From a virus, in the IMG/VR virus record IMGVR_UViG_3300045988_115111, positions 1 through 36,240 of that record: 36,240 bases of DNA. One strand, 5' to 3'. The notes below the pieces were generated by a model, which was not told the origin of the DNA, did not search any database, and saw only the letters and a list, made by a program, of their open reading frames with translations. Each line of letters starts with the position of its first letter. Position 1 is the first letter of the stretch. The position numbers and the translations under genes are program-made. Below are positions 12,544-34,539 of this stretch, piece after piece.

Positions 12544-15500
12544 TTAGACCAGGATCGACAAACCACTAGTAACCGTGGCCTCCTGGCCTTTCTTTAGCCC
12601 CTTAACTTCAACATCCAGGCCTCTAACCTTTTCGTTAAGACCCTTTAGCAGTTCTTCAACCTGCTTACCCGTGTAGCTACCATCAGGATCGAGACTAATC
12701 TCTAGTTTTGTAGTGGAACTAGACGAATCAACCACCGGGGTCTTCTCCACACCGTCTTTATCCGTAACGGTAGTATTAGGCCCCGACGACGACTCAGAGC
12801 CAACAGACCTAGACGCCTCCCCGACAACAAGCCCGTTATCATCCAACACCGCCACCGGCTGCAAACTACCAGTATGGATATGCCCCACGGGATAGCCTGT
12901 TTGAGCGCTGGCAGTATCGGCGCCCGCGTTCACCAGATCAACAAACGACTGCTTCAAAGAGCCGCCAATAATACCATCCAGGCCGAATAGGCCCAAAACA
13001 TCATTAGCGACCCCCGCCGCCGCCGCGCCACCAACGTGCGCCGCCCACTGATCCGGGCGCCCAAACTGGCCAGGGTTGCCGAAATTCTTAAAGTAGTTAT
13101 GAGCTGCCAGTGCCGCCTTAGTAAGCGGGCTAGACTCCGAAAACCACTCATTCCCCAAATAATCACCTGTATCTACCAGGTGTTGCAAGTGAGCAGCTGT
13201 TTCATTCCAGGCGCGGGGGCCGCCGTGCAAAATACGTGGCAATTCCGCCACTAACGCATCCACAGAGCTAACTAGCCCGGACACCCGCGCCCACTGTCCG
13301 TCCGTCAGCACCGCCTCCGGCTTGCCAGTGTGATTAAAGTAACTGCCAAAACCGCCCGGGGTGGGCTTCAACCAGCCGCCACTATCATAGCCATGCCCAT
13401 GCCCCCACATAGTTGTAAGGTCATCGCCATAACGCGAACGGTAGTAGCGTAGCGCCGCGTTCATATTTGCCCACGGGTCCGTCCGATCATTCGGCAAAGA
13501 CGGATCACGATTAGCTGCAAACGTGCTGGGAATGATCTGCAACAGCCCCTGGCCCGCCGCCGCGCCCGTGCCGTTAACGTCGACAATCTCTTGATTACGA
13601 TTTGGGATACCGCCCGACTCGCTCTGAATCTGTCGGATCATCGCGTCAACCTGTCGCGGGTCATCAGCGTTAAACCCATTGCGCCGCATTGCGGCCATCG
13701 CCATATCGCGCCACGTTTCAGCACTACCAGAAACGCCCGCGCCGCCGTTAAACGACCCGGCGTGGTCGGAAATGAAATTCAGAACAGCGTCTTTAAGTTT
13801 CCCAGCAAACGCCTTAGGGACATAACCTAGGGTGCCTTTAAACTCTGGTATAGCGTCCATGATAGGCCGCAAAACAGCCTCCGCCATATTTCGAACATGC
13901 GCGCGAATATCAAAGAAACCACCACCGCCACCGGCACCACCAGAAATAAACTTCCCTAGGAATTCCTTTAGCGTGTACGCATGGTTAAACAGGGGGTGGT
14001 CAGAGCCACGGGCGCGCCCGCCGATCTGAACACCATTATCACCAGAGGACTCAATATTAACCCCGTCAATCGTTCCAGCCATGTGACCATTAGCGCCGCC
14101 GCCCTTACCAGACAGCACGCCAATAGTGACGCGGCCTCCAAGCCCGGGCACAAAACCGAAATTGCCGAAATTAGACTCGGTATTAAAAATACGTCCACCG
14201 CGCAAATTCCCGCCGTTCAAATCCTGGACAATGCCAGACCACAAGCCTGAGCAGTCCCACGACGGGTTGCCCACACCCCCGTACTGGTAGGGCTTACCGT
14301 GCTCACCCTTCAATTTTCCAAACAGGGACGCCACGCGCTTATCCAGGTCATCAACCACACCACCATTAGCAAAGGCCGCGCCTTCACCTAATTGTTTACG
14401 GACTCCGCTCACACCACTAGACGCCGCTGTCTTATTCATGGCGTCCACAGCGGCGACGCCGCCTACAGCCTTCACCCATTCCGGGCGCATGATAGCCTCG
14501 CCGCCTGATAGCCCAATTTTCAGGCCACTACGCGGCTCAACAAAGGTATAGGGATCACGTCCCGGGGTGTATCCAGGCAGTACGCCACCGCTAGCAAACG
14601 CGCCTAACCATTCAGGCTCATAGGGCTGTAGTTTATCAAGACCTGCGAATTCAGCTACTTTATTCCAGGCGGTAACGATACCGTCGTTAAAAACCCTTTG
14701 GATAACAAACTTAATTGGTTTAGCTGCCGCCGCGCGTATGTTATCCCACATTGCAGTAATGCCGTCCACGGCGACGCTAAACGCGTTTTTAATCACATCC
14801 AGGCCCACGCGTAAAGACGTAAACACGTTAGCGTCTATCCACTGCCAGCCAGCTAATAGGGCGTTTTTCAGAACCTCCCACACACTAAGAATAAAATCCT
14901 TAGCGATGTTAAAAGCAATTGACCAACCCTCAACTTCTCTATTCCAGGCCCACAATACGCCCTCGCGAATCCAGTCCCACACAGCCGTAGCGCCGTCTCT
15001 GATCCAGTTCCACGCCGTGACGATAGCGTTAGCGACAGGCTCAAACACTAGACGCATACCTTCAACAGCCGCGTTCCAGCCAGCGATCAACACGCCACTA
15101 AACCAATCCCATATAGGCATGATGAAATCGCGAATAGAGACAAAAGCATTAACAAAACCGGCAATAGCCAGTTTAGCTATGTCAAACATGCCACTAACTA
15201 GGAATTTTTGGAACAGCAAACCCTGGCGAACGATCCAGACTAGCGCCTCCCCAAACGGCTGCACAACCTGCAAAACACCCTCAAACGCGCCCCACAGGAA
15301 CCCAAAAACACCCTTAGCAATCTCCCAGGTATTTAGAAAAGCATCACGAATAGTTAACAGATAGTTAACAAGGCCGCTATCCTCTTCAAAACCAAACGCG
15401 GCCAGGCCACCCGTGTAATCGCCCTTAGTAAAAATGCTAAACACATCAGCCACAGCCCCGCCAAAGTCCTTAATAAACTCCCACGCCTTGCCAAAGGAAT

Positions 15501-17436
15501 CACTAATGCCTCCCCAAATTCCCTTAGCCCATCCAGCAATCCCAGAACCCCAACCTTTTAGAGTCTCCCAGAACTCACCAATCTGGCCCTTCAGGGAATC
15601 TAGCAGTTTCCGCCCTGTTTCCGTCTTAGTAAAGAAAATTGCCAGGGCGCCGACAACGGCACCAATAGCTAAAACGATCAACCCAATAGGGTTAGCCAGC
15701 AGCGCCGTATTAAGCTCCATCTGGGCCGCTGTTTGCAGCAGGGTACCCGCGCGCCACGCCTTATAAAGCGCCACCATCGTCTTTAGTTTGCCTACAACAA
15801 ATAGGCCCGCCTGATAGGTACGGATAGTCGCAAAGCCAGCGGCCACACCCATAGCCGCGCCCGCTAGAGTCTTTAGCAAATCCTGGTGGCGCTTACCCCA
15901 TTCTAGCGCATCCTGGAAACCCTTAGACACATCGTCAATACGCTTAGCCAACGTATCAACCCATTGGGTCAAATACGGCTCCGCCATGTCATATAGCTTT
16001 TGTTGGAAATCAGCCACCGCGTTTCCCACGCGGTCTATAGCGCCGTTAAGTCCCGCCAATTGCGAGCCCGCCGTATCTCCAGCGGACCCTACGCGGTCCA
16101 TTTTTTCGCGCAATTCGTCGAACCCGTCAGCGCCCGCCTTAGCCGCCGTGGTAGCAAACTTAATACCCTGTTCGCCAAACGCAACCTTAGCCGCCGCGCC
16201 GAACGCCTCATCGCCCATACGGGCCTGCGCCTCCGAAAGCTGTTGACTAATATCACGCAACCCCACGAACTTTCCGTCCGCGTCCAGGGCGTTAACCCCC
16301 ATCTCGTTCAACGCCTTTTTAGCCTCTTTTGTGGGGGCAATCAAGTCATTGATAGAGCCAGCTAAAGCCGTACCCGCCATAGAGCCAGTGATACCACTGT
16401 TAGCGAACAAGCCTAGCATGGTATTAGTATCTTCCAGCGAAATACCCAGGGAACCCGCAACAGGGGCCGCGTGCTTCAAAGACTCCGCCAAAGTAGCAAC
16501 ATCAGTCGCGGAATTGTTAGCCGTATTAGCCAACACGTCAGCCACCCTACCGGCATCGGCCGCCGCCAAATTAAACGAATTCATCGCGGCAACCTGAATC
16601 TCCGCCGCCTGCCCCGCATCAATCTGGGCCGCACCCGCTAGCTGAATGGAACCCTTCGCCGCATCCATAGACTCTTTAACCGACAAACCACCCTTAGTAA
16701 GGGCCAGCATAGCGTCAGCCGCCGACTTAGCCGACGTCCCCGCCAAATCCGTATCCTGGCCTAACTCACTAGCCTTATTACGAACTTCCTGCATCTGTTC
16801 AGCAGTAGACCCCGACACGGCTTGGAGCGTACCCATAACCTGGCTGAAATTACGGCCATTGCTAACAGCTTCACCCAAAAACGCTGTACCGCCCGCGATA
16901 CCTAGGCCACCGGCCATAAGGCCCGCAAACTTCCCCATCTTCCCTAGGGCGCCGCCGAATGCGCCACCGAGTCCACCGAGTGCCCCTTCCATGCCCCCGG
17001 CCTTAGCTGACGCGGCATCGAACGCGTCTGCATTTTCTTGAGTGACGCGGGCTAGGTTTTCTTCCTTAGCCGCTAGGGACGTGACAGCCTTTTCCACGGA
17101 CTTATCCGCGCTTTCAGCATCGCGCCGGGCCTTAGCGACCTTAGCCTCAGCCGCCGCAATCTGGGACGCCTTAGCATCCCCCTTATCTAACACCTCTTGA
17201 TATTGCAGCTCAGCAACTTTAAGCTTATCGGCCTTCTCAGCCGCCCTATCCTTAGCCCTACCAATAGCCTCGCTAGCGCGCTGAACATCAGACTCCGCGC
17301 GCTTGATCCCATCCGCCAACGACTGCGCCATGACTTTGCCGCCATCGTCGCCAGCCTTTTTAAGGTTTTTGTTAGTCTCGTCAAAAAACTTATCAAACGC
17401 CGGTAGGATCGGAATAAACACAGAATCCATGCCCAT
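12544..17436 (-). CDS. tail tape measure protein with embedded NlpC/P60 peptidase and lytic transglycosylase (SLT) domains
   Basis: 1630 aa. The N-terminal region is Ala-rich with coiled-coil and Gly-rich segments. W-rich tandem repeats include VTAWNWIRDGATAVWDWIREG. The NlpC/P60 catalytic motif GKPYQYGG...SWDCSGL maps to about 14050-14330. The SLT motifs IRQIQSESGG...GQGLLQIIPSTF map to about 13350-13680. Confidence 0.85.
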   Translation of the reverse strand: MGMDSVFIPILPAFDKFFDETNKNLKKAGDDGGKVMAQSLADGIKRAESDVQRASEAIGRAKDRAAEKADKLKVAELQYQEVLDKGDAKASQIAAAEAKVAKARRDAESADKSVEKAVTSLAAKEENLARVTQENADAFDAASAKAGGMEGALGGLGGAFGGALGKMGKFAGLMAGGLGIAGGTAFLGEAVSNGRNFSQVMGTLQAVSGSTAEQMQEVRNKASELGQDTDLAGTSAKSAADAMLALTKGGLSVKESMDAAKGSIQLAGAAQIDAGQAAEIQVAAMNSFNLAAADAGRVADVLANTANNSATDVATLAESLKHAAPVAGSLGISLEDTNTMLGLFANSGITGSMAGTALAGSINDLIAPTKEAKKALNEMGVNALDADGKFVGLRDISQQLSEAQARMGDEAFGAAAKVAFGEQGIKFATTAAKAGADGFDELREKMDRVGSAGDTAGSQLAGLNGAIDRVGNAVADFQQKLYDMAEPYLTQWVDTLAKRIDDVSKGFQDALEWGKRHQDLLKTLAGAAMGVAAGFATIRTYQAGLFVVGKLKTMVALYKAWRAGTLLQTAAQMELNTALLANPIGLIVLAIGAVVGALAIFFTKTETGRKLLDSLKGQIGEFWETLKGWGSGIAGWAKGIWGGISDSFGKAWEFIKDFGGAVADVFSIFTKGDYTGGLAAFGFEEDSGLVNYLLTIRDAFLNTWEIAKGVFGFLWGAFEGVLQVVQPFGEALVWIVRQGLLFQKFLVSGMFDIAKLAIAGFVNAFVSIRDFIMPIWDWFSGVLIAGWNAAVEGMRLVFEPVANAIVTAWNWIRDGATAVWDWIREGVLWAWNREVEGWSIAFNIAKDFILSVWEVLKNALLAGWQWIDANVFTSLRVGLDVIKNAFSVAVDGITAMWDNIRAAAAKPIKFVIQRVFNDGIVTAWNKVAEFAGLDKLQPYEPEWLGAFASGGVLPGYTPGRDPYTFVEPRSGLKIGLSGGEAIMRPEWVKAVGGVAAVDAMNKTAASSGVSGVRKQLGEGAAFANGGVVDDLDKRVASLFGKLKGEHGKPYQYGGVGNPSWDCSGLWSGIVQDLNGGNLRGGRIFNTESNFGNFGFVPGLGGRVTIGVLSGKGGGANGHMAGTIDGVNIESSGDNGVQIGGRARGSDHPLFNHAYTLKEFLGKFISGGAGGGGGFFDIRAHVRNMAEAVLRPIMDAIPEFKGTLGYVPKAFAGKLKDAVLNFISDHAGSFNGGAGVSGSAETWRDMAMAAMRRNGFNADDPRQVDAMIRQIQSESGGIPNRNQEIVDVNGTGAAAGQGLLQIIPSTFAANRDPSLPNDRTDPWANMNAALRYYRSRYGDDLTTMWGHGHGYDSGGWLKPTPGGFGSYFNHTGKPEAVLTDGQWARVSGLVSSVDALVAELPRILHGGPRAWNETAAHLQHLVDTGDYLGNEWFSESSPLTKAALAAHNYFKNFGNPGQFGRPDQWAAHVGGAAAAGVANDVLGLFGLDGIIGGSLKQSFVDLVNAGADTASAQTGYPVGHIHTGSLQPVAVLDDNGLVVGEASRSVGSESSSGPNTTVTDKDGVEKTPVVDSSSSTTKLEISLDPDGSYTGKQVEELLKGLNEKVRGLDVEVKGLKKGQEATVTSGLSILV

Positions 17437-19847: not shown

Positions 19848-20129
19848 CTAGTAGCCTCCCCTCTTGATTACGCGCCTCAGGGCGCCAATACGGGGGGTGT
19901 CTTCCCCGCCGTATTCCTCAGCCCTGTTATCTGAAAAGACCTGTACCTGGGCACGACCACGGGGGCGCACACTGTAACGCACAGAATAATTAGCCTCACC
20001 GCCGTGTTTACGTGACTCAGCTAAGGCAGCGCGGGCTACACGCTCCCCCACCCCCAGCAAATGACGCTTTAACCCCTTTTGCTGGTTGACGTCCCTCCAA
20101 ATAAAGTCCGGCACTCTATCCGACGACAT
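19848..20129 (-). CDS. tail completion / HK97 gp10-like head-tail joining protein
   Basis: 93 aa, basic, called by position. Confidence 0.35.
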   Translation of the reverse strand: MSSDRVPDFIWRDVNQQKGLKRHLLGVGERVARAALAESRKHGGEANYSVRYSVRPRGRAQVQVFSDNRAEEYGGEDTPRIGALRRVIKRGGY

Positions 20130-20475
20130 GCTTTAGCCCCACTTCCACGTGATGCACAGAACCGGGGTTATTAGGGTCCGGCCAGCGCGCGGGGGCGCCA
20201 TCCACAGCCATCACTAACACCCCGCCTAGTCTCACGCGATCAGACGCCCGAATATCTAAATCAGTACCCGGGGGTGTGTACATCCTCCAGGACTGGTCCA
20301 CCGTGGGGCGTAAAACCCCATCCTCGGCAGTTCCCACGGGCTGCACGCTAACAGGAAAATCCACCGGGATAACCGTGGGGTTAGACCAATCGGGCACAGT
20401 CTCCGAGCTGTAGCGGCTACGCTTTGTGCCCGCGCGTAATATCTCCACCGTCTGGTTAAAAATCGCGCCGATCAT
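20116..20475 (-). CDS. head closure / head-tail adaptor protein
   Basis: 119 aa, with overlap coupling to both neighbours. Confidence 0.35.
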   Translation of the reverse strand: MIGAIFNQTVEILRAGTKRSRYSSETVPDWSNPTVIPVDFPVSVQPVGTAEDGVLRPTVDQSWRMYTPPGTDLDIRASDRVRLGGVLVMAVDGAPARWPDPNNPGSVHHVEVGLKHVVG

Positions 20476-21065
20476 GGCAACGCCCTTAACTTGTAGGTAT
20501 CGAGAATCCTATATTCATGAGACTGCGGCGTTATCCCCGTGGTAGCGCCCATACTGATGCCGCCCACCGTGATAGCCCCAGAGGGCTGCGCAGCCCTAGA
20601 CGCCATAGACAGAACCACAGAAATCAAGTCCTGAGGGTAGCTATCTACGCCACCCCCGGGCGTTCCAAAGCCATGCTCAAAATCAACATTTACCGAATAG
20701 CTAGGCTTAAGCTGGATACCTGCCAGTTTCACGATACCACCGGGGAATGCCATAAACTCACCACCCGCCCGGGTAGACCAAATCCGCCCGCCCTTGGACT
20801 GAGATAAAGAGGCATACACCTCGATAGAATTAACTATCATGTCCGATTTGGTGGGCAAAATAATAGTGTTCCCAGACTGTTCAGTAAGTGTTATATTGTC
20901 AGGCAAACTAGGGAAAACATGCCAGCCACAGATATTACGAACGGACGCGATAGCCGCGTTAATATGCGCCTGAGAAATAAACTCAGCGCCCTTAGGGTCC
21001 AACTGCTTCAACATCTCCACAGTTATAAAAGACGACGGTTTTTCAATCCTCTTCACAGCTATCAC
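20472..21065 (-). CDS. head-tail connector protein
   Basis: 197 aa, called by position. Confidence 0.35.
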   Translation of the reverse strand: MIAVKRIEKPSSFITVEMLKQLDPKGAEFISQAHINAAIASVRNICGWHVFPSLPDNITLTEQSGNTIILPTKSDMIVNSIEVYASLSQSKGGRIWSTRAGGEFMAFPGGIVKLAGIQLKPSYSVNVDFEHGFGTPGGGVDSYPQDLISVVLSMASRAAQPSGAITVGGISMGATTGITPQSHEYRILDTYKLRALP

Positions 21066-21076
21066 CCCCTAACAGG

Positions 21077-21298
21077 CTAACCGTTTTTCGGTTTACGCCC
21101 ACGGCGGGCGGGGGGAGCCTCTACAACATCCCCCGCCGCCTCTTCACCCTCAGCCGTAACCCCGTCCAGGGCCACGTCCTCAGGAACGGCCCCCGGATAA
21201 AAACGCGCCGCGAATTCATCCGCCATTAAAAGAGTAGTCTCAAACCCATTAGGGAAAACCACCCTCCACCGCTTACGCGAATCACCCATACTTATCAC
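21077..21298 (-). CDS. small hypothetical head protein
   Basis: 73 aa, with an acidic core and a basic tail RRGRKPKNG. Its stop overlaps the MCP gene end (21295-21298). Confidence 0.35.
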   Translation of the reverse strand: MISMGDSRKRWRVVFPNGFETTLLMADEFAARFYPGAVPEDVALDGVTAEGEEAAGDVVEAPPARRGRKPKNG

Positions 21299-22509
21299 GC
21301 CGTCAAAGTCAGCTTAACGAACGCAGCCGGGGCCGGAACCATCAACCCGAGGCGTTCTTCCGCGCGGACAGTAACCAGATTGTTCTCGAAATCATCCGCG
21401 TTAGTATTAGTGGAATCTACTCGCAGACCGCCCTTACGCAGCACCGTAGCGCCCTGCTTAAATGCGCCAACAAGGGCCGTGCCCTGAGGCACCGCGTTAG
21501 TTACCACAGTTCGCAGACCCCACGGGCCGGGGTTAATCTGAATGCCGCCGTTACCATACGGGCCAGCAAACGGGCCGCCCGCATAGTACTGGCCGTTCTT
21601 ATCCTTCGACAGGCGCAGAGGCTGGTAGTCAGCCGGGTTAATAACCAGGCCGTCAGCCGTTAGCGTGGTGGACTGCTGAACCATGCCCATAGCCTCGAAA
21701 ATCGTGTCCGACCAGGTACCTACGCCCGTGCCGGTTTTCGCTTGTACGCCGTCACGATTCAACAGGCCCTTAATCCCGTTGCTAGTGCCATCGCCATTGA
21801 GTAGCTGCTTTTCCTCAGCAACAGACAGCTCGTACACCAGATTGTTGTTAATCCAGTCAGCGATAAAGCCATAGTCGGAGATCATTTCGTCAGTGAGCTT
21901 AGTCAGCGCCGCTACCTTAGTCAGTGATTCAGTAACCACGTCAAAGTCGGTAAAGTTAACATAGGGCTTTTTACCGCCCTCTGCGACAAAACCGACGGCG
22001 CCTTCTGCAATGCGGTTGGCCTTTTCCACCAAATACTTAATAGTGGCGTTCGACACGGTAGCCGATCCCATAAGATCGGCCGCGACCAGCTGCTCTCGGT
22101 GGGCGTTCACAATGGCACGATCAAACGTCGTACCCCACGCAGCACCATCACCGGTAGGGCGCTTATACGGGTCGCCCGCCGCCTTAAACTCGGTGCCCAC
22201 AATGTTCAGGCGCGCGCCCGCCGCTTGCTCCCGCAAACCATCGCGCGCCGCCTTAACAAAGTGCTCACCCAGGGTAGCGGCCTTCACCTCAGCCGGGGCC
22301 GCATCCTCTTCAACCTCACGCAAAGCCCCCACGGACTTCAACAACTCACGAGACTTAGCCGCCTGTTCCAGCTTTTCGTCAATCTCATGGACCTTATCAA
22401 CAGCGGCCTTAATCTCAGCCCGCTGGTCCTCGGTCATAGTCTCCCGGTACTTGTCAGCCAGTTCGCGGGCGGCCTTCAACGCAATCGCGCGCTCATTCTT
22501 CAAAGTCAT
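21295..22509 (-). CDS. major capsid protein, HK97 fold, with an N-terminal scaffolding (delta) domain
   Basis: The ORF track gives 21295..22599. The start at 22509 (MTLKNERAIALK) follows the GGAAGTGGGAAAAA RBS. The N-terminal ~100 aa are charged coiled-coil. The C-terminus is Gly-rich. Confidence 0.75.
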   Translation of the reverse strand: MTLKNERAIALKAARELADKYRETMTEDQRAEIKAAVDKVHEIDEKLEQAAKSRELLKSVGALREVEEDAAPAEVKAATLGEHFVKAARDGLREQAAGARLNIVGTEFKAAGDPYKRPTGDGAAWGTTFDRAIVNAHREQLVAADLMGSATVSNATIKYLVEKANRIAEGAVGFVAEGGKKPYVNFTDFDVVTESLTKVAALTKLTDEMISDYGFIADWINNNLVYELSVAEEKQLLNGDGTSNGIKGLLNRDGVQAKTGTGVGTWSDTIFEAMGMVQQSTTLTADGLVINPADYQPLRLSKDKNGQYYAGGPFAGPYGNGGIQINPGPWGLRTVVTNAVPQGTALVGAFKQGATVLRKGGLRVDSTNTNADDFENNLVTVRAEERLGLMVPAPAAFVKLTLTA

Positions 22510-23182
22510 TTTTTCCCACTTCCAGTAGTTCCAACTCCACGGCCACAGCAGCCGCGAAAACATCCCCCGAGGCGTCTTTCCCCTCCGGGTCAACAACAAC
22601 AGATGACGCCGCCTGTTCAGCCTCAGCCACAGGCGTGCCCATCACGTCACGCAACAATTGCATAACATCGTCTTTAGAAATCGCGGGTGCATTCTTAACC
22701 CCCACAATCTCAGTATCCTGGTTGGCTCCAATCGGCACGACAGAAACCTCGTAAAGCTTCACGCGCCGTATCTCGTAAGCGTCCCGCCCGTCAATATCCA
22801 CGGGGCCGCCGTCCAACACGTCATAGGCAAAAGACATCTGAGAGAGGCGCCCCGCCTTTATCAAACGGTAAACCTGGGCCGCCTTAGGGTTATCCAGATC
22901 AAGACGCGCATGCACCTTCAACCCGTGATCGTCTTCTACCGCGTCCAACACCTCCCCGATATTGGAAAAAGGATCATGAAAATCATGCCCATACAAGACA
23001 GGCAGACGGCCAGGCGCCCCACCCCACTCTTTCAGAGCATCGGCAAACGCGCCTCTAACAACCACGTCCCCGTACGAATCAATGTTGCCGAAAACAGATG
23101 CATAGCCGATAAACTCACCTTCGGCTAAATCATCCGAATTATCAGACTTAACCAAAGTGAAGTCCAACTGTTTTAGCTTCAT
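22493..23182 (-). CDS. prohead (capsid maturation) protease, HK97/U35-like
   Basis: The internal start MKLKQLDFTLVK at 23182 follows the strong GGGGGAGAAAGGGGG RBS. Family-typical segments are GYASVFGNIDSYGDVVVRGAF and PVLYGHD. Confidence 0.7.
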   Translation of the reverse strand: MKLKQLDFTLVKSDNSDDLAEGEFIGYASVFGNIDSYGDVVVRGAFADALKEWGGAPGRLPVLYGHDFHDPFSNIGEVLDAVEDDHGLKVHARLDLDNPKAAQVYRLIKAGRLSQMSFAYDVLDGGPVDIDGRDAYEIRRVKLYEVSVVPIGANQDTEIVGVKNAPAISKDDVMQLLRDVMGTPVAEAEQAASSVVVDPEGKDASGDVFAAAVAVELELLEVGKNDFEE

Positions 23183-23620
23183 TGTTCCCCCTTTCTCCCC
23201 CGTGGGGATCGTGGGCGGGTTTTCATACCACGCCCTAATAGCCTCTTCTGTATATGCGGGACGCCCCTCATCACGGGCACGCCGCAAACACACATCCATG
23301 CCCGGGTCCAAAAGGTGGAACTCAGCCCCGGCGCCCGCATACGCAGCAATAAGCGACCGTGGCGGGTTTCCTGAAATAACCCAAGCATCAGGGGAACCCG
23401 TTTCAGCATCCAGCACCCACCCTGTAAACCCCCGCCGCATAGCGGCCACCGCATTCAATACAGACTCCCCGCGCACAGTTTCCGGGTGCAGCTCCCCCGT
23501 ACCATCCACCACAGCCGCCAAACGGTCAAAGTCAAACCTGGGTGTACCACGCGGGGCGTGCAGCTCAACAAAAGTAGACTTACCGGAACAAGGCGGCCCC
23601 ATCACAACATGTAGCGTCAC
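23183..23620 (-). CDS. P-loop NTPase/kinase-like domain (about 146 aa) in the same frame as, and with no stop before, the prohead protease
   Basis: The Walker A motif is GPPCSGKST, the Walker B-like motif is GWVLDAE, and a lid-like segment is LLDPGMDVCLRRARDEGR. The ATG at 23620 overlaps the portal stop. The ORF track shows one continuous 375-aa frame, 22493..23620. Confidence 0.5.
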
Positions 23621-24858
23621 TGCTCCCCCTCACCATCTAGGGACTCCCCCAGCCGATCCGCGTCCGTCGTATTCAGCGGCACAAGCAGCGAATCACCATC
23701 ATCTAGACGCGTTAGATTATTCTGCTCCCTAGCCTCGTTCCGAGTCATCCACGGGCCGCCAACCGCCGCCGTAGTAATAGACGCCTTTTCCTCAAACGAC
23801 GCGCGTAGTTTTTCATCCAAATTAAACTCCGCATATACCCCATCCGGGACGCCTAGCAAAGGCAATAGGAACGCGTTAATCACGCCCTCAAGTTTTTTAA
23901 TAATCGGCCCCAGACTATCGCCGTAAAGACTTTTGCGGAATTCCCTAACGTTAGAGTAGTTAGCGTTATCCAAAAGCCCTACCATCGTAGGGTTAATGTG
24001 ATAGACACTAGCTACGGTAGCCAATGCGAGCTTAGCGACGTCGACAAACTGTTCGTCCTGAGCCTTCAAATGCATGGGCTTAAAGTCCATGCCATCTTCA
24101 AGGACGGGAGTACCACCCGCGCCGGAACCACGGCCCGTATATTGACTATTCCACGACGCCTTAAACCTGCTACGGTCTGCCCCCGTCCAAGGCGCGTCCT
24201 TAGGCCGCGTAATCACCCCAGATAGGCGTGGCCCATTTTTCCACAGCTGGCCACGATACGCCGCCGCCTCCAGTTGTTCCTTTAGCACATCCCGCAAAGA
24301 ATCAACAGGTGACGCGCCGTAACGATAAGTCCCCGGCTGATACCCGTGACAATAAACAATGTTAGACGCGGGTAGCTCCACATGGTTACCATCATCATCG
24401 GCTACAACGATAGACCGCAAAGTCCACCTATCACTAAAGTTTTTCCGATACACCCACAGTGGGCTAATCGGATAAACAGCCGGGCTACCATCATCATCAA
24501 CAGAGACGAACCAAATAAACTCATCAAATAAACAAAGGTCAAGCAGTGAGGCATGTAAAACATCCTGCATTAACTGACCAGGGTTAGCCTTAAATAACAC
24601 ACGCGCCGCATCTGAATCACGGTCGCGAATACGGCCCCCATCATCCCCCCGCCTATACACATGGAGCGCCACACTCGAAATATTCCGAGCAACGAACTCA
24701 GTCACCGTCCTAAGATGTGGTTGCTCCTTCCACAACTGCTCCACTGGCATCGAATCAACGTCGCTAGCCAATTTTGCGAACAATGGGGCGGCTAACACAT
24801 CCGCGCTAGGCGCCTCCATAACCGGGGCTTTAAACCCCAGCTTTTCAAAAAAGCCCAC
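23617..24858 (-). CDS. portal protein
   Basis: 413 aa, between TerL and the protease, with an acidic C-terminus. Confidence 0.7.
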   Translation of the reverse strand: MGFFEKLGFKAPVMEAPSADVLAAPLFAKLASDVDSMPVEQLWKEQPHLRTVTEFVARNISSVALHVYRRGDDGGRIRDRDSDAARVLFKANPGQLMQDVLHASLLDLCLFDEFIWFVSVDDDGSPAVYPISPLWVYRKNFSDRWTLRSIVVADDDGNHVELPASNIVYCHGYQPGTYRYGASPVDSLRDVLKEQLEAAAYRGQLWKNGPRLSGVITRPKDAPWTGADRSRFKASWNSQYTGRGSGAGGTPVLEDGMDFKPMHLKAQDEQFVDVAKLALATVASVYHINPTMVGLLDNANYSNVREFRKSLYGDSLGPIIKKLEGVINAFLLPLLGVPDGVYAEFNLDEKLRASFEEKASITTAAVGGPWMTRNEAREQNNLTRLDDGDSLLVPLNTTDADRLGESLDGEGEQ

Positions 24859-24878
24859 AAGACACCCCCCCTTCTCTT

Positions 24879-26537
24879 TTACACGATCAACAAACCGCCG
24901 CCGCCATCGTCATCATCATCAATAAGCGGCGCGTCTTCCAACTCTTCCACGACGTCCTCAAAGTCGTCGGCGGCATAAGCGCTAATGAACTTTTCCGGGG
25001 GGTTTAACGCCGCCCACCACGCGATATTACAAGCAACAAACGGGCTAATATCGCCAAAGGATTTGCCGCGATCCCAGATAAAGACGTCACCGGCTTTACG
25101 CTCAACAGCCGCCAAAGCCGCCTCATTTAAAACAGGCTGGTCAATATGGACCACCCGCCCCGATTGGATGGCGTCAAAGAATCCAAGAGTGGATCGGGTC
25201 ATATCCCCGCCCTGCCACGGGCGCACAGTAAAACCAGCGTCAGCCAAACCCGGGGCCAAAGCCTGGGACGGTGAACCCTTCACTTGGAGAGCAACAACAC
25301 CATCGCACCACGACCCCACGCGGGGCCGTAGCCAATCAACCACCCACGAATAGCCGGGGCGCGCCGCCACAACCTCCACGTGAACGACACCGTCCCCACG
25401 ATCAGCGGCAACAGCGATATAAGCCGCCCGGCCATCCACAGCCACATCCACGCCCACCGCTATAACCGCATCATCCGGGATAGTAGCCGATGGGTCCGCC
25501 AAAGGCTCCCACATCGCCGGTAGAATCTTTCCAGGCTCAACCGACTGGACCCACTGGCAAAGGTACTCAGTTCTAAAACCATCAGGGTTAGGCGTTGACC
25601 TAACCTCCGCCTGCAAATGCTCCAACTTCGCCGCGCCATAACCCAAAGATGGGTTTGCCTGCAACATCCCCCGCGGGTCATCAATCGGCAATGCTGGATC
25701 GGCGGACCACGAAAACAACGCCATATTAGACGCGTCTGATAAGCCCGCGTTTACAGCCTCCAAGCACTGACTACGCAAATCCTGCAAGACAATAGAACTA
25801 GCGTCGCCAGCGTTTGAGAACGCCCACACCTGGCCAAAAGGCCGCTGGCTCACCGTTGGGGTGATAGCGTCCCACGCGTCCCATTTAATATGCTCTCGCA
25901 GCTCGTCGAAAAACGCCAGGTCCACCGTCATAGAGCGACCGCCCTTACGCGTGGAAGTGGTGACGCTCCAAAACGGCGGACCGTCTTTAGCTAAATCCAC
26001 CGCCCCATCCACCGGGGCGCCCGTCAACTTAAACATATGGCCGCCGTTAACGCGCGTGATGTATTTGCCGTTGAATTCGTCATCTTCGTCGGCGCGCGTA
26101 TTATCTCGCAGCCACTGCGACAGTACAGGGTTAAATGCAGCTATGCGGAACGCATCCGCCAAAGTGCCCTCAGCGTACTTCAAATTCTGAGCCGTTGAAA
26201 TGATCCCAGACGCGCCAAACACAAACAAACGCCACAGGCCAAGCACGACCATAAAGTGAGTCTTACCGTTTTGCCGGGCAACTTCAACAATGACGCGCTT
26301 AAAACGAAAATCCGACCCATCTGCGTTATACTCCAAGCCATGCAACGCTAGCCACTGCTGGAACGGGCGCAAAGGCTGGCCGATCAATTCCGCGAACTCA
26401 ATAAGCGAAAACCCCGCGGTAGTTTGAGGGGTAAGCTCCCGCCCACCCAACGTCGGAGGGAACAAACGCGGCACGGTGTGACCATGCTCCCCATCATCCA
26501 GAAGACTCCAAGCCTCCATTAATCGCGCGTAGTCCAT
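24879..26537 (-). CDS. terL: terminase large subunit
   Basis: 552 aa. The Walker A motif is VARQNGKTH. The C-terminal nuclease region is D-rich. The gene sits directly upstream of the portal. Confidence 0.8.
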   Translation of the reverse strand: MDYARLMEAWSLLDDGEHGHTVPRLFPPTLGGRELTPQTTAGFSLIEFAELIGQPLRPFQQWLALHGLEYNADGSDFRFKRVIVEVARQNGKTHFMVVLGLWRLFVFGASGIISTAQNLKYAEGTLADAFRIAAFNPVLSQWLRDNTRADEDDEFNGKYITRVNGGHMFKLTGAPVDGAVDLAKDGPPFWSVTTSTRKGGRSMTVDLAFFDELREHIKWDAWDAITPTVSQRPFGQVWAFSNAGDASSIVLQDLRSQCLEAVNAGLSDASNMALFSWSADPALPIDDPRGMLQANPSLGYGAAKLEHLQAEVRSTPNPDGFRTEYLCQWVQSVEPGKILPAMWEPLADPSATIPDDAVIAVGVDVAVDGRAAYIAVAADRGDGVVHVEVVAARPGYSWVVDWLRPRVGSWCDGVVALQVKGSPSQALAPGLADAGFTVRPWQGGDMTRSTLGFFDAIQSGRVVHIDQPVLNEAALAAVERKAGDVFIWDRGKSFGDISPFVACNIAWWAALNPPEKFISAYAADDFEDVVEELEDAPLIDDDDDGGGGLLIV

Positions 26538-26823
26538 CCATCACCGCCCTATTACGTTTAGGCCGCCCACGCGTCTTAGGCGCATCATCAGACGGCGCGC
26601 CGGGGGTTAAACCTAACGTCATCAAAGTCTTCAACAAATGCGGCCCTAAATACAGCGCCTTAGTCCGATCCTCCGACGACGCGCGCTCACTATCATCAAT
26701 CTGACGTGCGTACGACAAAGCAATAGCCACCGCGCCACTATTCCGGGGGTCATCCATCAGCCCAGAGGCGTCCACGGCCTTCAAAACAGCCGCCTCTACC
26801 TCCCCAACACGCCTAGCACTCAT
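26494..26823 (-). CDS. terS: terminase small subunit
   Basis: The ORF track gives 26494..26937. The start at 26823 (MSARRVGEV) follows the GGAGGTGGTGAAA RBS. It overlaps the terL start by 44 nt. The C-terminus is basic (KTRGRPKRNR). Confidence 0.5.
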   Translation of the reverse strand: MSARRVGEVEAAVLKAVDASGLMDDPRNSGAVAIALSYARQIDDSERASSEDRTKALYLGPHLLKTLMTLGLTPGAPSDDAPKTRGRPKRNRAVMDGLRAINGGLESSG

Positions 26824-27089
26824 TTTCACCACCTCCAAAACAGGGGCTAAACCCCTAAAAGTCCAGCAAAAACACGCCACAACCCGCATATTATTCAGGG
26901 GGCTATGCAACCGTGGGGGGAAATGCCAGGTCCCCACCCCTTGACTTTTCCGGGTTTTTTCCCTTAGTGATCTTTACCCCCTACCCCTTTGACCTGGGCT
27001 TTTGCCGTTTGGGGCGTTGTGAGGTGTTGTGGTTTGTTTTATGCATATTATACATCTGTTTGTATGTTATGCGTTTTATGTTTGCCTAG
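26824..27089. other. candidate cos/packaging-recognition region between the HNH and terS genes
   Basis: 266-bp ORF-poor region. It carries the direct repeats CCCCACCCCTTGAC (26932-26945) and CCCCCTACCCCTTTGAC (26977-26993) and a T6 run. The flanking HNH-terS-terL arrangement is typical of HK97-like cos phages. Confidence 0.4.
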
Positions 27090-27380
27090 TCACCATATTC
27101 GGCTTGTGTTGCCGATGGGTTGTATGGCTACTCCGTCACTTTTGTGTCTGTTGCACGACGCGTGGACGGGTTGAATGTTATCTTCTACCAATTCTAGGTG
27201 TGGGTGTGTTTTTGTTGGCTGTATGTGGTCTAGGTCGAGACTGTTTGGGTGATATGTGGTGCGCGGGGCTTGATAGTCGATGGGTTGGCCGCATATGGCG
27301 CAAGGTTTGTTCTGCTCTTTGTATTGTGCTTGGAGGCGTTTGCGTAGGCGGCGGGCGGCTGGGCTGTCTGTGAATGGCAT
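27090..27380 (-). CDS. HNH endonuclease (packaging-associated)
   Basis: 96 aa. The HNH/zinc motifs are CAICGQ...LDLDHIQP...NIQPVHASCNRHK. A GGAGG RBS precedes the start. It lies immediately upstream of terS. Confidence 0.75.
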   Translation of the reverse strand: MPFTDSPAARRLRKRLQAQYKEQNKPCAICGQPIDYQAPRTTYHPNSLDLDHIQPTKTHPHLELVEDNIQPVHASCNRHKSDGVAIQPIGNTSRIW

Positions 27381-33887: not shown

Positions 33888-34166
33888 TTAGTCACGCGGC
33901 GCCACAACCACCACCACATCAGCGGGGTTATCAACCGAACGGACCAGCCACCCACACTCATAAGAACGCGCCGGGTACGCGTGGATAAACGCGTGGCAAA
34001 GGTGGCAAATGGCCAGGCAATTGTCCAGATCATGGGCGCCGCCCTGACTACGCAGCTGCCTATGGTGAATATGCTCAGCCCGCCCCGTACATCCAGCCCA
34101 CGGGATCAACACCTCGCACACCCCACCCGCGCGGGCATGAACCGCCTCAGCAACAGCGTGCGGCAT
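33888..34166 (-). CDS. HNH endonuclease (second copy, in the early region)
   Basis: The ORF track gives 33888..34187. HNH/zinc signatures are CEVLIPWAGC, AEHIHHRQ and DLDNCLAICHLCHAFIH. The likely start is MPHAVAEA. Confidence 0.7.
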   Translation of the reverse strand: MPHAVAEAVHARAGGVCEVLIPWAGCTGRAEHIHHRQLRSQGGAHDLDNCLAICHLCHAFIHAYPARSYECGWLVRSVDNPADVVVVVAPRD

Positions 34167-34176
34167 ACGCCCCGGG

Positions 34177-34539
34177 CTACTCCCCACGGCCAGCTACCGA
34201 ATACATAGACCGAATAGACGCCCCTATCGACTGCAAAGCCCGTAGCTCCAGTTCCAAGGCCTTAGCGCGCCTGTCAGCGTACTTAAACGCCGCCTCCGCC
34301 ACGTCACGGGCTTCACGCTCCCCCATAGTCTCCACCCGCGCCGCCTGCTTCCTGTCCTCTACAGGCCCGTCGGCGCTAAGGTAGGCGCGGGCGTAAGCCG
34401 CCTCAAAGAGGCGATCAGAGTCAAGAAAAGCTCTATAGGCTTCGTCCACCACGTCCACGCCTTTAGCGATACGGCTAGACAATGTTCTAATGTTTTGTTC
34501 GATGTCCACCGGGTTTAGCGGTGCTTGGAACTGTGGCAT
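34177..34539 (-). CDS. hypothetical protein
   Basis: 120-aa ORF overlap-coupled on both sides. Confidence 0.4.
   Translation of the reverse strand: MPQFQAPLNPVDIEQNIRTLSSRIAKGVDVVDEAYRAFLDSDRLFEAAYARAYLSADGPVEDRKQAARVETMGEREARDVAEAAFKYADRRAKALELELRALQSIGASIRSMYSVAGRGE

What the first reader, a model, noticed from the sequence alone, without database searches (positions are those of the whole stretch)
22493..23620. P-loop kinase-like domain fused in frame to the prohead protease
- Between the portal stop and the protease there is a ~146-aa P-loop domain with no stop codon before the protease. Its Walker A motif is GPPCSGKST, it has a Walker B-like motif hhhhD, and it has an Arg-rich lid LLDPGMDVCLRRARDEGR, which suggests an AAA_33 or polynucleotide-kinase/zeta-type fold.
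- The protease part is an HK97/U35-like domain (GYASVFG...DSYGDVV...YGHD).
- A very strong RBS, GGGGGAGAAAGGGGG, sits 5 nt before the internal MKLKQ start. The locus could therefore make both a kinase-protease fusion and a protease-only product.
- I do not know of an NTPase or kinase domain as a normal head-morphogenesis component at this position. It could phosphorylate a capsid or scaffold component, act as a packaged effector released by the protease, or be an abortive-infection countermeasure.
Basis: partly seen in the sequence, partly recalled or inferred. Interest (0 to 1): 0.75.

Follow-up and report, generated by a model that had tools for sequence, protein, structure and literature searches.

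The report
Kinase domain riding on prohead protease
A prophage head-maturation protease gene carries an in-frame polynucleotide-kinase-like domain at its front and keeps a second internal start, a layout repeated in many phages, which suggests (but does not prove) that the kinase is carried into the capsid.

Summary
A 375-codon ORF lies on the minus strand (23620 to 22493). It reads P-loop domain (aa 1-141), disordered linker (142-158), HK97-family S78 prohead protease, then a helical tail.

It is not a sequencing artefact. 119 of the 120 best database relatives are the same fusion, and it occurs in published corynephages (BFK20 gp5, phi673/674, LGCM). The kinase half has dN/dS of about 0.07.

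The internal ATG with its strong Shine-Dalgarno is conserved in 37 of 37 fusion loci, so two products are likely.

The same domain is also fused to ClpP-type proteases, a scaffold protein, a protease-capsid fusion and a portal C-terminus. It also stands alone between HNH and TerS.

My best reading (about 0.5) is a capsid-loaded accessory kinase with unknown substrate. The architecture is already in databases (phrog_9644), but I found no description of it in the papers I could search. I class it as a new variant of a known kind, of moderate to high interest.

The parts
22493..23620 (-). Long form: 375-codon ORF (with stop) encoding P-loop kinase-like domain, linker, S78 prohead protease and C-terminal helical tail
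   Evidence: ORF list. Pfam and PHROG hits cover both halves, and phrog_9644 spans both. 119 of the 120 best relatives have the same architecture.
23618..23620 (-). GTG start of the long form, overlapping the portal stop TGA (23617-23619) as GTGA. An SD-like GAGGGGGAG lies at 23623-23631.
   Evidence: Sequence. The long-form start overlaps or abuts the upstream stop in 33 of 37 related loci.
23198..23620 (-). P-loop kinase-like domain (aa 1-141), closest in fold to polynucleotide kinases
23573..23599 (-). Walker A / P-loop GPPCSGKST (aa 8-16)
   Evidence: G8, G13 and K14 are invariant and S15 is at least 90% conserved in the 53-sequence alignment. They are also invariant in 107 stand-alone homologs.
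23525..23533 (-). D30-F-D32 (DxD) after strand beta-2; candidate metal-binding and general-base aspartates
   Evidence: D30 is invariant and D32 is about 90% conserved in fusions, 100% in stand-alone forms. D32 aligns with the T4 Pnk general base D35.
23258..23308 (-). D105-P-G, then the Arg-rich lid (R114 invariant, R120 87-100%)
   Evidence: Conservation. R114 aligns with T4 Pnk R122.
23147..23197 (-). Disordered interdomain linker (aa 142-158). It contains the internal SD, the internal start, and a conserved V-K-[AS] (aa 157-159) that is a candidate protease cleavage site.
   Evidence: Full-length AF2 gives pLDDT below 50 for 142-158 and pTM 0.50. K158 is 93% conserved. The cleavage-site idea is an inference from the MCP junction motif A-K-[ST]-L-G-E-H-F.
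23187..23201 (-). Internal Shine-Dalgarno GGGGGAGAAAGGGGG, 4 nt upstream of the internal ATG
   Evidence: Sequence. Duplex energy with the anti-SD is -15.5 kcal/mol, second strongest of 367 in-frame positions in the ORF. Across the family the median rank is in the top 1%.
23180..23182 (-). Internal in-frame ATG (Met147), the start of the protease-only short form
   Evidence: ATG or GTG sits at this linker position in 37 of 37 fusion loci. Every valine there (7 scored, plus 2 seen by eye) is GTG, against 35% GTG for valines elsewhere.
22493..23182 (-). Short form: 229-aa prohead protease alone
   Evidence: One database gene call of a 94%-identical relative is exactly this product (P0002, 229 aa). 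Peptidase_S78 E 1.8e-34.
22703..23125 (-). Peptidase_S78 (HK97-family) catalytic domain, aa 166-306, with invariant H212 and S263
   Evidence: Pfam and TIGR01543 hits. Invariant columns. AF2 pLDDT above 90.
22505..22675 (-). C-terminal helical tail (aa 316-372), the presumed procapsid-targeting region. It overlaps the likely MCP start (ATG at 22509).
   Evidence: Helices 316-327, 331-339 and 351-372 at lower confidence. The targeting role is inferred from HK97 gp4 work (Duda et al. 2013, cited from memory; the reference is listed).

Best explanation
The locus is a nested pair of head genes in a temperate siphovirus of a Corynebacterium-like host. One reading frame gives two proteins.

(i) The long form starts at a GTG that overlaps the portal stop. 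It has four parts: a small polynucleotide-kinase-like P-loop kinase (aa 1-141), a disordered linker, an HK97-type S78 prohead protease, and a helical C-terminal tail.

(ii) The short form is the protease alone. It starts at Met147, behind a stronger Shine-Dalgarno sequence.

The kinase is an accessory module, not a core head-assembly part, because most related proteases lack it. I propose that it enters the procapsid by riding on the protease. The protease's C-terminal tail would bind the inside of the shell, and a minority of cargo-bearing long forms would co-assemble with a majority of short forms. During maturation the protease would cut the exposed linker. The folded kinase domain of about 16 kDa would then be trapped inside the head with the DNA, and would probably be delivered to the next host.

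Inside the head or the new host it would transfer phosphate from NTP to a hydroxyl group. A nucleic-acid 5'-OH end is the best guess from the fold.

Shown here: ORF continuity, conservation and purifying selection; the fold; the catalytic-type residues; the conserved internal start; and repeated fusion of the same domain to unrelated proteins of the procapsid interior.

Inferred only: encapsidation, linker cleavage, retention and ejection, and the substrate.
For: The fusion is real and under selection:
- 119 of the 120 best relatives have it.
- It is found in at least nine genera or lineages, including one Firmicute, and in the published phages BFK20, phi673/674 and LGCM.
- dN/dS of the kinase half is 0.07, against 0.04 for the protease half.

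Kinase fold:
- pLDDT 93.7.
- hhalign against T4 Pnk gives E 2e-6, with K14/S15 = K15/S16, D32 = D35 and R114 = R122.
- The same residues are invariant in fused and stand-alone forms.

Two products:
- An in-frame ATG or GTG with an SD is present in 37 of 37 fusion loci, in a linker that is otherwise variable and disordered.
- Every valine at that position is GTG.
- The internal SD is stronger than the long-form SD in 29 of 37 loci (Wilcoxon p = 6e-5).
- The long-form start is coupled to the upstream stop in 33 of 37 loci.

Cargo reading:
- Among the 150 best cluster representatives of the domain, 60 are fused to S78 proteases.
- Others are fused N-terminally to non-homologous ClpP-type protease-scaffold proteins (nine shown), to a DUF4355 scaffold protein, to an S78-MCP fusion, and to a collagen-repeat protein in the capsid-protein slot. 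One is fused C-terminally to a portal.
- Gene contexts confirm the same slot, between portal and capsid protein, in unrelated head-module types.
- Five N-terminal fusions outside the S78 set also keep an internal ATG after the kinase domain. The SD is strong in L173 and L174 (second strongest in the ORF) and moderate in L175, L176 and L178 (top 3-8%).
- By general knowledge of HK97-fold capsids, the joined termini I could identify (protease N-terminus, scaffold, portal C-terminus) face the procapsid interior.
- The BFK20 gp5 GenBank note reads 'experimentally confirmed presence among structural proteins'.
Against: - No direct evidence shows that any long form is made, packaged, cleaved or ejected.
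- The BFK20 note does not say which part of gp5 was detected, and the paper could not be read.
- Residual prohead protease is sometimes seen in virions anyway (P1 and lambda).
- Many homologs are stand-alone genes between HNH and TerS, with no obvious route into the capsid. HNH and RapZ_C fusions do not fit an interior-cargo story.
- The collagen/CBM fusions could be external structural proteins.
- Two residues essential in T4 Pnk are not conserved: R38 corresponds to Ala35, and D85 to Ser/Asn/His83. The substrate need not be a polynucleotide.
- The internal SD and start could be partly an inherited feature of the ancestral protease gene.
- A 16-kDa folded protein must unfold to pass through a siphovirus tail.
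Confidence: 0.5

Rival explanations
1. Packaging accessory. The P-loop domain is an NTPase or kinase that works with the HNH endonuclease and terminase at the cos site, by binding or processing DNA ends. Its fusion to the protease would only reflect its place in the late packaging/head operon. It would act in the cytoplasm or at the portal, not as encapsidated cargo.
For: - Stand-alone homologs sit immediately after HNH and before TerS, or at the cos-proximal genome end, in mycobacteriophage BigNuz-type phages, in metagenomic phages, and in Lactobacillus phage A2 ORF61, which is annotated 'small terminase subunit'.
- In phage BH1, ORF57 is an HNH + P-loop fusion, and phrog_4581 covers HNH plus this domain.
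- The window itself has HNH-TerS-TerL-portal directly upstream.
- The fold is closest to DNA/RNA-end kinases.
Against: - The window and L166 have a separate bona fide TerS (Terminase_6), so the domain is not TerS.
- Fused N-domains are acidic (median pI 4.9), which is poor for general DNA binding.
- Operon position alone does not explain repeated, independent in-frame fusion to three unrelated protease or scaffold families and to the portal C-terminus, with a retained internal start in the N-terminal fusions.
- HNH and terminase nucleases normally leave 5'-phosphate ends, so no kinase is needed (general knowledge).
- This rival can be partly reconciled with the cargo model if the kinase acts on the packaged DNA end.
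Confidence: 0.2
2. Late cytoplasmic counter-defence or metabolic kinase. The domain phosphorylates a host molecule or defence signal late in infection. The fusion would only ensure co-expression, and the protease or a host protease would free the domain in the cytoplasm.
For: - It is an accessory domain with patchy distribution: 126 of 160 related protease loci lack it.
- It is a promiscuous domain with many partners, as is typical of phage accessory and anti-defence genes.
- Catalytic-type residues are conserved in all contexts.
Against: - There is no PADLOC or defence-family match.
- The partners are overwhelmingly virion-assembly proteins rather than random late genes.
- No RNA ligase or phosphatase partner is present in the window.
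- Prohead proteases are generally active only inside assembled proheads (general knowledge).
Confidence: 0.15
3. Cis-acting pro-domain. The P-loop domain regulates or chaperones the protease it is attached to, for example by keeping it inactive until assembly in a nucleotide-dependent way.
For: It is N-terminal to the protease, connected by a flexible linker. Some residues are conserved only in the fused clade: R28, R63, D71, E73 and H102.
Against: - The same domain exists as a free protein and is fused to non-protease partners: scaffold, portal, HNH and RapZ_C.
- The conserved internal start makes protease without it.
- AF2 predicts no fixed interface (pTM 0.50).
- 126 of 160 related proteases work without it.
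Confidence: 0.07
4. Artefact. A sequencing frameshift or lost stop codon has joined two separate genes, or the upstream part is a non-coding ORF extension.
For: One relative's gene caller called only the 229-aa protease (P0002). One low-quality contig shows the kinase and a protease fragment as separate calls (L168).
Against: Hundreds of independent assemblies from many genera show the uninterrupted ORF. dN/dS is 0.07. The fold is confident. The PHROG profile spans both halves.
Confidence: 0.01

Closest known systems
HK97 gp4-type prohead serine protease (Peptidase_S78 / TIGR01543)
   Same: The C-terminal 229 aa are a standard member. The profile scores are strong, His212 and Ser263 are invariant, the gene sits between portal and major capsid protein, and there is a helical C-terminal tail.
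   Different: It carries a 146-aa N-terminal kinase-like extension and a second, internal translation start. HK97 gp4 and 126 of 160 related loci have neither.
Corynephage BFK20 gp5, phi673/phi674 gp04 and LGCM-VI LGCMVI_0026 (phrog_9644 'head maturation protease')
   Same: The two-domain architecture, gene position and internal start are the same. The N-domain is 45-51% identical. BFK20 gp5 is noted as found among structural proteins.
   Different: The window is only 45-59% identical to any isolate or published copy. None of these records or papers annotates or discusses the kinase half.
T4 polynucleotide kinase (kinase domain), and the bacterial Pnkp kinase domains (C. thermocellum Pnkp, Capnocytophaga Pnkp1)
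   Different: Sequence identity is only 14-19%. T4 R38 and D85 have no conserved equivalent. There is no 3'-phosphatase domain, and no RNA ligase partner in the window. The domain is smaller (about 140 aa) and has family-specific invariant residues (R62, W80, C111, W131-Y132).
T4 internal proteins and Alt with their capsid-targeting sequence, and the P1 Dar proteins (encapsidated, protease-processed, ejected proteins)
   Same: The proposed logic is the same. A non-structural protein is directed into the prohead through a signal that contacts the assembly core, is processed by the prohead protease, and is delivered with the DNA (background).
   Different: Here the 'signal' would be the whole protease (in other phages, the scaffold, portal or capsid protein) joined in frame, not a short N-terminal peptide. 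The cargo would be a kinase. None of the steps has been demonstrated.
Lambda C/Nu3-type nested in-frame head genes (from my own knowledge)
   Same: One reading frame with an internal in-frame start yields a long and a short head-assembly protein that share a C-terminal part.
   Different: In lambda the shared part is the scaffold and the long-form extension is the protease. Here the shared part is the protease and the extension is a kinase.
Lactobacillus phage A2 ORF61 and BH1 ORF57 'small terminase subunit/HNH', mycobacteriophage BigNuz gp82 'polynucleotide kinase', and corynephage phi16 gp101
   Same: These have a homologous P-loop domain (26-37% identity) with the same conserved residues. 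They are located in the packaging module.
   Different: They are stand-alone or fused to HNH or RapZ_C, next to cos/HNH/TerS rather than fused to the protease. The 'terminase small subunit' label is not supported by the fold, and separate TerS genes exist.

Membership tests
HK97-family prohead protease (Peptidase_S78 / TIGR01543) | Profile match above the curated cut-off | tested here: met
   PF04586 at 117.9 bits (cut-off 21). TIGR01543 at 143.2 bits (cut-off 59).
HK97-family prohead protease (Peptidase_S78 / TIGR01543) | Conserved catalytic His and Ser | tested here: met
   H212 (LYGHD) and S263 (QMSFA) are invariant in 53 sequences. Their assignment as the catalytic dyad rests on analogy to HK97 gp4, from general knowledge.
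HK97-family prohead protease (Peptidase_S78 / TIGR01543) | Gene lies between the portal and an HK97-fold major capsid protein with an N-terminal delta domain | tested here: met
   Portal at 23617-24858 and MCP at 21295-22599. The MCP has a coiled-coil N-terminus and a conserved junction motif.
HK97-family prohead protease (Peptidase_S78 / TIGR01543) | Proteolytic processing of the capsid protein inside proheads | not testable with these tools
   This needs biochemistry or virion proteomics.
T4-type polynucleotide 5'-kinase (Pnk/Pnkp kinase domain) | P-loop GxxxxGK[ST] with essential Lys and Ser | tested here: met
   GPPCSGKST. K14 is invariant and S15 is at least 90% conserved. They align with T4 K15/S16.
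T4-type polynucleotide 5'-kinase (Pnk/Pnkp kinase domain) | General-base Asp after strand beta-2 (T4 D35) | tested here: met
   D32 aligns with D35, and D30 is invariant two residues before it.
T4-type polynucleotide 5'-kinase (Pnk/Pnkp kinase domain) | Acceptor-binding Arg (T4 R38), and Asp85 | tested here: not met
   R38 aligns with A35 (Ala in 85-97% of sequences). D85 aligns with S83 (Asn/His in fused forms, His/Asp in stand-alone forms). Invariant R62 may substitute, but this is inference.
T4-type polynucleotide 5'-kinase (Pnk/Pnkp kinase domain) | Lid arginines (T4 R122, R126) | tested here: met
   R114 is invariant and aligns with R122. R117/R120 lie near R126 with a register shift.
T4-type polynucleotide 5'-kinase (Pnk/Pnkp kinase domain) | Structural similarity to solved Pnk kinase domains | tested here: met
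T4-type polynucleotide 5'-kinase (Pnk/Pnkp kinase domain) | Linked 3'-phosphatase domain and an RNA ligase partner (end-healing/sealing pathway) | tested here: not met
   The domain is followed by a protease. No phosphatase or ligase was found among the scanned window ORFs.
T4-type polynucleotide 5'-kinase (Pnk/Pnkp kinase domain) | 5'-OH polynucleotide phosphorylation activity | not testable with these tools
   This needs an enzyme assay.
Pfam AAA_33 | Score at or above the gathering threshold (27 bits) | tested here: inconclusive
   26.7 bits for the isolated domain and 23.9 in the full protein. Homologs pass: A2 ORF61 at 33.1, BigNuz gp82 at 30.5, P0241 at 55.1.
Nested in-frame head genes (lambda C/Nu3 type) | Internal in-frame start codon with its own ribosome-binding site inside a longer ORF | tested here: met
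   ATG at 23182 with GGGGGAGAAAGGGGG 4 nt upstream. This is conserved in 37 of 37 fusion loci. Five fusions with other partners also keep an internal ATG.
Nested in-frame head genes (lambda C/Nu3 type) | Both products are synthesised and both take part in assembly | not testable with these tools
   This needs proteomics or western blots.
Encapsidated, protease-processed internal/ejection proteins (T4 IP/Alt, P1 Dar) | Physical presence in procapsids or virions | not testable with these tools
   The only hint is the GenBank note that BFK20 gp5 is among structural proteins.
Encapsidated, protease-processed internal/ejection proteins (T4 IP/Alt, P1 Dar) | A targeting element that binds the prohead interior | tested here: inconclusive
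   The evidence is indirect. The domain is recurrently fused to termini of the protease, scaffold and portal that face the interior by general knowledge.
Encapsidated, protease-processed internal/ejection proteins (T4 IP/Alt, P1 Dar) | Cleavage from the targeting element by the prohead protease, and ejection into the host | not testable with these tools
   Candidate site V-K|S at aa 157-159, compared with the MCP junction A-K|[ST]-L-G. This is inference only.
Terminase small subunit (label given to homologs A2 ORF61 and BigNuz gp82) | TerS fold or profile, and being the only TerS candidate in the module | tested here: not met
   The fold is a P-loop kinase. The window has a separate Terminase_6 TerS at 26494-26937, and L166, L175 and L176 also have one.

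The most novel reading that the evidence does not exclude
A widespread and so far undescribed class of virion-borne enzymes. In this reading, a minimal Pnk-like kinase is loaded into phage capsids by in-frame attachment to whichever procapsid-interior protein is available: an S78 or ClpP protease, a scaffold, the portal C-terminus or the capsid-protein N-terminus. In the N-terminal fusions, copy number would be set by a retained internal start. After proteolytic release the kinase would travel with the DNA into the next host and phosphorylate a DNA or RNA end or a host defence component at the very start of infection.
Probability: 0.35. Interest if true: 0.8.

Novelty: new variant of a known kind. 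Interest (0 to 1): 0.6.

Why it matters
If the kinase is really encapsidated, this would add an enzyme class (a P-loop kinase) and a loading mechanism (whole-protein piggybacking with nested translation starts) to the short list of proteins that phages carry in their heads. It would also point to an unknown early-infection or DNA-end chemistry in many actinobacterial prophages. The family has 1,251 clusters at 50% identity with E of 1e-10 or better.

There are practical consequences too:
- It flags systematic mis-annotation: 'HK97 family prohead protease' or 'capsid and scaffold protein' for two-domain proteins, and 'terminase small subunit' for stand-alone kinases.
- It suggests a natural design for loading foreign proteins into HK97-like capsids.

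If the kinase is not encapsidated, the finding is still a well-supported example of a conserved nested gene pair in a head module.

Tried and rejected
- Frameshift or artefact: rejected.
- Near-identical annotated phage: megablast of 20000-27000 against 50,697 phage records found nothing. Only protein-level relatives exist.
- Sequence search of the PDB with the N-domain profile gave only weak P-loop-only hits (best E 8.5e-4 to a designed P-loop protein). A fold search was needed.
- NCBIfam gave nothing useful for the N-domain. PADLOC gave no defence-family match.
- Literature: searches for prohead-protease/kinase fusions found nothing relevant. The BFK20 genome paper (PMID 16457869) and Duda et al. 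2013 (PMC3709472) are not held. The phi16, phi673/674 and CL31 papers do not discuss the domain. I recall a 1997 paper showing that a phage A2 cos-proximal protein (gp3) binds cos. I could neither read it nor confirm that gp3 is ORF61, so I use it only as a lead.
- 'The domain is the terminase small subunit': rejected (fold, and a separate TerS is present).
- 'T4-like RNA repair system': rejected for lack of a phosphatase and a ligase.
- Single origin of the fusion: an NJ tree put 28 of 31 fused N-domains in one clade and 3 among stand-alone forms. This is too weakly resolved to decide between one and several fusion events within the S78 group. The ClpP, scaffold and portal fusions are clearly independent events.
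- Protease cleavage-site prediction: only a loose motif resemblance was found, so it is not used as evidence.


Full report
**1. Observation**

The window has a 375-codon ORF at exactly the stated coordinates, but on the minus strand (23620 down to 22493). Its GTG start overlaps the stop of the portal gene (23617-24858) as GTGA. The ORF ends 17 nt after the probable ATG of the major capsid protein gene (22509).

- The N-terminal 146 residues carry GPPCSGKST, FHLLD and the Arg-rich LLDPGMDVCLRRARDEGR.
- Residue 147 is the Met of MKLKQ. It is preceded by GGGGGAGAAAGGGGG and a 4-nt spacer.
- Pfam gives Peptidase_S78 (E 6.5e-34, aa 166-306). AAA_33 scores 26.7 bits on the isolated N-domain, just below its cut-off of 27.
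- TIGR01543 (HK97 prohead protease) scores 143 bits.

**2. The fusion is not an artefact and not unique**

- A PHROG profile of 341 positions (phrog_9644, 'head maturation protease') matches both halves in order.
- tblastn finds the same two-domain gene after the portal gene, or after a small ORF that follows it, in Corynebacterium phages BFK20 (gp5), phi673/phi674 (gp04) and the LGCM prophages.
- Of the 120 best hits in a 5.8-billion-protein collection, 119 are 334-416-aa proteins beginning with the same Walker A. Those that carry a source name are nearly all labelled 'HK97 family phage prohead protease' in Corynebacterium genomes.
- Scans of genome and viral contig collections add Mobiluncus, Varibaculum, Dermabacteraceae, Agrococcus, Olsenella, Mycobacterium, Actinomyces and an Anaerovoracaceae MAG.
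- Two metagenomic contigs at 99% and 94% identity carry the same open frame.
- Against the 94% relative, the kinase half has dN/dS = 0.07 and the protease half 0.04. Against the 99% relative, the kinase half has 15 synonymous and 0 non-synonymous differences.

The N-terminal part is translated and under purifying selection. The domain is nevertheless accessory: of 160 loci recovered with the fusion alignment, 33 are fused, 1 has a separate kinase gene and 126 have the protease only.

**3. What the N-domain is**

With a 31-sequence alignment, AlphaFold2 gives a confident model (mean pLDDT 93.7) of a five-stranded P-loop kinase.

- Profile-to-sequence alignment with the T4 Pnk kinase domain (probability 89%, E 2e-6) pairs K14/S15 with K15/S16, D32 with the general base D35 and R114 with lid R122. 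T4 R38 and D85 fall on Ala35 and Ser83.
- Family-wide, G8, G13, K14, D30, R62, I128 and W131 are invariant. P9, P10, S15, D32, W80, P86, G98, D105-P-G107, C111, R114 and Y132 are at least 90% conserved. The same set is conserved in 107 stand-alone homologs.
- A sequence-only search of the PDB and NCBIfam were uninformative. No defence-system profile matches.
- No phosphatase or RNA ligase was found among the window ORFs I scanned.

Conclusion: this is an apparently active phosphotransferase of the polynucleotide-kinase branch. It is not a demonstrable member of the T4 Pnk family, and its substrate is unknown.

**4. Two products from one frame**

The full-length model has two confident domains joined by a disordered linker (aa 142-158, pLDDT below 50; pTM 0.50), followed by C-terminal helices.

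- The linker varies in length and sequence across the family. Even so, in all 37 fusion loci for which I had DNA it contains an in-frame ATG or GTG just downstream of a purine-rich SD-like element.
- In the 34 loci scored automatically (27 ATG, 7 GTG), the predicted SD/anti-SD pairing upstream of this codon ranks in the top 1% (median) of all in-frame positions in the ORF. It is among the top three positions in 17 of those 34.
- Every valine at this position is encoded by GTG, whereas GTG is 35% of valine codons elsewhere in these genes.
- The conserved protein motif (E)KGG just before the start is what an AAAGGAGG-type SD encodes.
- The long-form start overlaps or abuts the upstream stop codon in 33 of 37 loci. 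Its SD is weaker than the internal one in 29 of 37 (Wilcoxon p = 6e-5). In the window the long form starts with GTG and the short form with ATG.

It also suggests, by inference only, that the short form is the more abundant.

**5. The wider family points to the capsid interior**

A profile search of 1.84 billion cluster representatives finds 1,251 relatives at E of 1e-10 or better. Among the best 150:

- 60 are kinase + S78 protease.
- 51 are stand-alone proteins of 130-200 aa.
- 39 have other partners.

Pfam scans of those other partners show the following:

- The kinase is N-terminal to ClpP-type (S14) protease-scaffold proteins in nine representatives, one with a duplicated kinase.
- It is N-terminal to a DUF4355 scaffold protein.
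- It is N-terminal to an S78-capsid fusion (826 aa).
- It is N-terminal to collagen-repeat proteins.
- It is C-terminal to a portal protein.
- It is combined with HNH or with a RapZ C-terminal domain.

Gene maps confirm that the ClpP fusions sit right after a Mu-type portal, in head modules unrelated to the window's. The portal-kinase fusion precedes an S78-capsid fusion. The collagen fusion occupies the slot between the portal and the head-completion genes.

The ClpP, scaffold and collagen fusions I could examine as DNA again have an in-frame ATG right after the kinase domain. The SD is strong in L173 and L174 (second strongest in the ORF) and moderate in L175, L176 and L178.

By general knowledge of HK97-fold capsids, the protease N-terminus, the scaffold and the portal C-terminal crown lie inside the procapsid. 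The capsid-protein N-terminus would also, if the collagen-repeat protein in the capsid-protein slot is in fact the capsid protein. Independent capture of one domain by several unrelated interior proteins is most simply explained if the domain is meant to be inside the head. The GenBank record of BFK20 notes that gp5 was experimentally found among structural proteins, but I could not read the paper.

**6. A second, competing association**

Stand-alone homologs lie immediately downstream of an HNH endonuclease and upstream of TerS/TerL, or at the cos-proximal end of the genome. Examples:

- mycobacteriophages such as BigNuz, annotated either 'polynucleotide kinase' or 'terminase small subunit';
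- metagenomic phages;
- Lactobacillus phage A2 (ORF61).

In phage BH1 the HNH and P-loop parts are a single protein (phrog_4581). Corynephage phi16 gp101 joins the domain to a RapZ C-terminal domain. This supports a role tied to the HNH-terminase packaging step or to DNA ends.

The domain is not itself a TerS, because separate Terminase_6 genes are present, including in the window at 26494-26937. The fused N-domains are acidic (median pI 4.9).

**7. Mechanism proposed**

- The long form co-assembles with the short form inside the procapsid through the protease's C-terminal tail. HK97 gp4 precedent: Duda et al. 2013, from memory; the reference is seen.
- The protease cuts the exposed linker. 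A conserved V-K-[AS] at 157-159 loosely resembles the conserved A-K-[ST]-L-G-E-H-F junction of the capsid proteins of this family, and HK97's K|SLGS (from memory).
- The kinase stays with the DNA and acts on a DNA or RNA end, or on a host target, after ejection.

T4 internal proteins and P1 Dar proteins are the functional precedents. Lambda C/Nu3 is the precedent for nested head genes (my own knowledge). Only the anatomy and its conservation are shown here. Encapsidation, cleavage, delivery and the substrate are all inferred. I put about 0.5 on the cargo model, about 0.2 on a cytoplasmic packaging-accessory role, about 0.15 on a late cytoplasmic kinase, under 0.1 on a cis pro-domain and about 0.01 on an artefact.

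**8. Novelty and verdict**

The architecture is already present in public data, in a PHROG family and in phage genomes published since 2006. The window's gene is thus a new member of an existing but uncharacterised family. None of the papers I could search or read mentions the kinase half, the conserved nested start or the partner census. As a system, a kinase attached to procapsid-interior proteins with dual initiation is a new variant of known kinds (encapsidated internal proteins and nested head genes).

Interest is 0.6. The pattern is conserved, widespread and testable, and would surprise phage-assembly specialists. The function remains unknown and every mechanistic step beyond the anatomy is inference.

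Noticed in passing
window 26494-27380 (-): An HNH endonuclease (27090-27380; PF01844, phrog_338) lies directly upstream of a Terminase_6 small subunit (26494-26937) and TerL (24879-26537). This is the HK97-like HNH-dependent cos packaging layout. The cos site is probably in the 150-bp gap at 26938-27089, but it was not mapped.
   Followed up: partly
window 21295-22599 (-): The listed major-capsid ORF starts at a TTG inside the protease gene. The likely true start is the ATG at 22509 (MTLKNERAIA...), which overlaps the last codons of the protease. Capsid proteins of the family share a conserved junction motif A-K-[ST]-L-G-E-H-F after a variable acidic or Pro-rich stretch (the window has EVKAATLGEHF). 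This is probably the maturation cleavage site.
   Followed up: partly
window 1-36240: The window is essentially a whole temperate siphovirus genome. It contains an integrase (4298-5362, +), endolysin (7034-7825), a 1630-aa tape measure (12544-17436), dUTPase, a thioredoxin-like protein, DNA methyltransferase, RusA, SSB, a replication initiator and Erf. No tRNA was found. It is 99% identical at the protease locus to IMG/VR contig UViG_3300045988_124376. No annotated phage matches at the DNA level.
   Followed up: partly
window 33888-34187 (-): A second small HNH endonuclease gene sits in the replication/recombination module, between the replication initiator and the Erf-side genes.
   Followed up: no
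L165:3004-4098 (corynephage phi16 gp101); P0337, P0339, P0365: The same P-loop domain is joined to a RapZ C-terminal (PapZ_C) domain, in either order. In phi16 this gene is at the cos-proximal right genome end. This is a RapZ-like phage protein of unknown role.
   Followed up: no
L171:2501-2935 (phage A2 ORF61); L164:3001-3450 (BigNuz gp82); other records: Stand-alone P-loop kinase homologs are annotated 'terminase small subunit' in several RefSeq and GenBank phage records, and 'polynucleotide kinase' in sister records of the same phages. The TerS label looks like an annotation error that has been propagated.
   Followed up: partly
L178:3642-5195: A 517-aa protein with the kinase domain, a coiled-coil stretch and long collagen-like Gly-X-Y repeats occupies the slot between the portal and the head-completion genes. 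No recognisable protease or capsid protein is called nearby. Related proteins add a CBM_5_12 domain (P0271).
   Followed up: no
P0309 (508 aa): A ClpP-type prohead protease is preceded by two tandem copies of the kinase-like domain.
   Followed up: no
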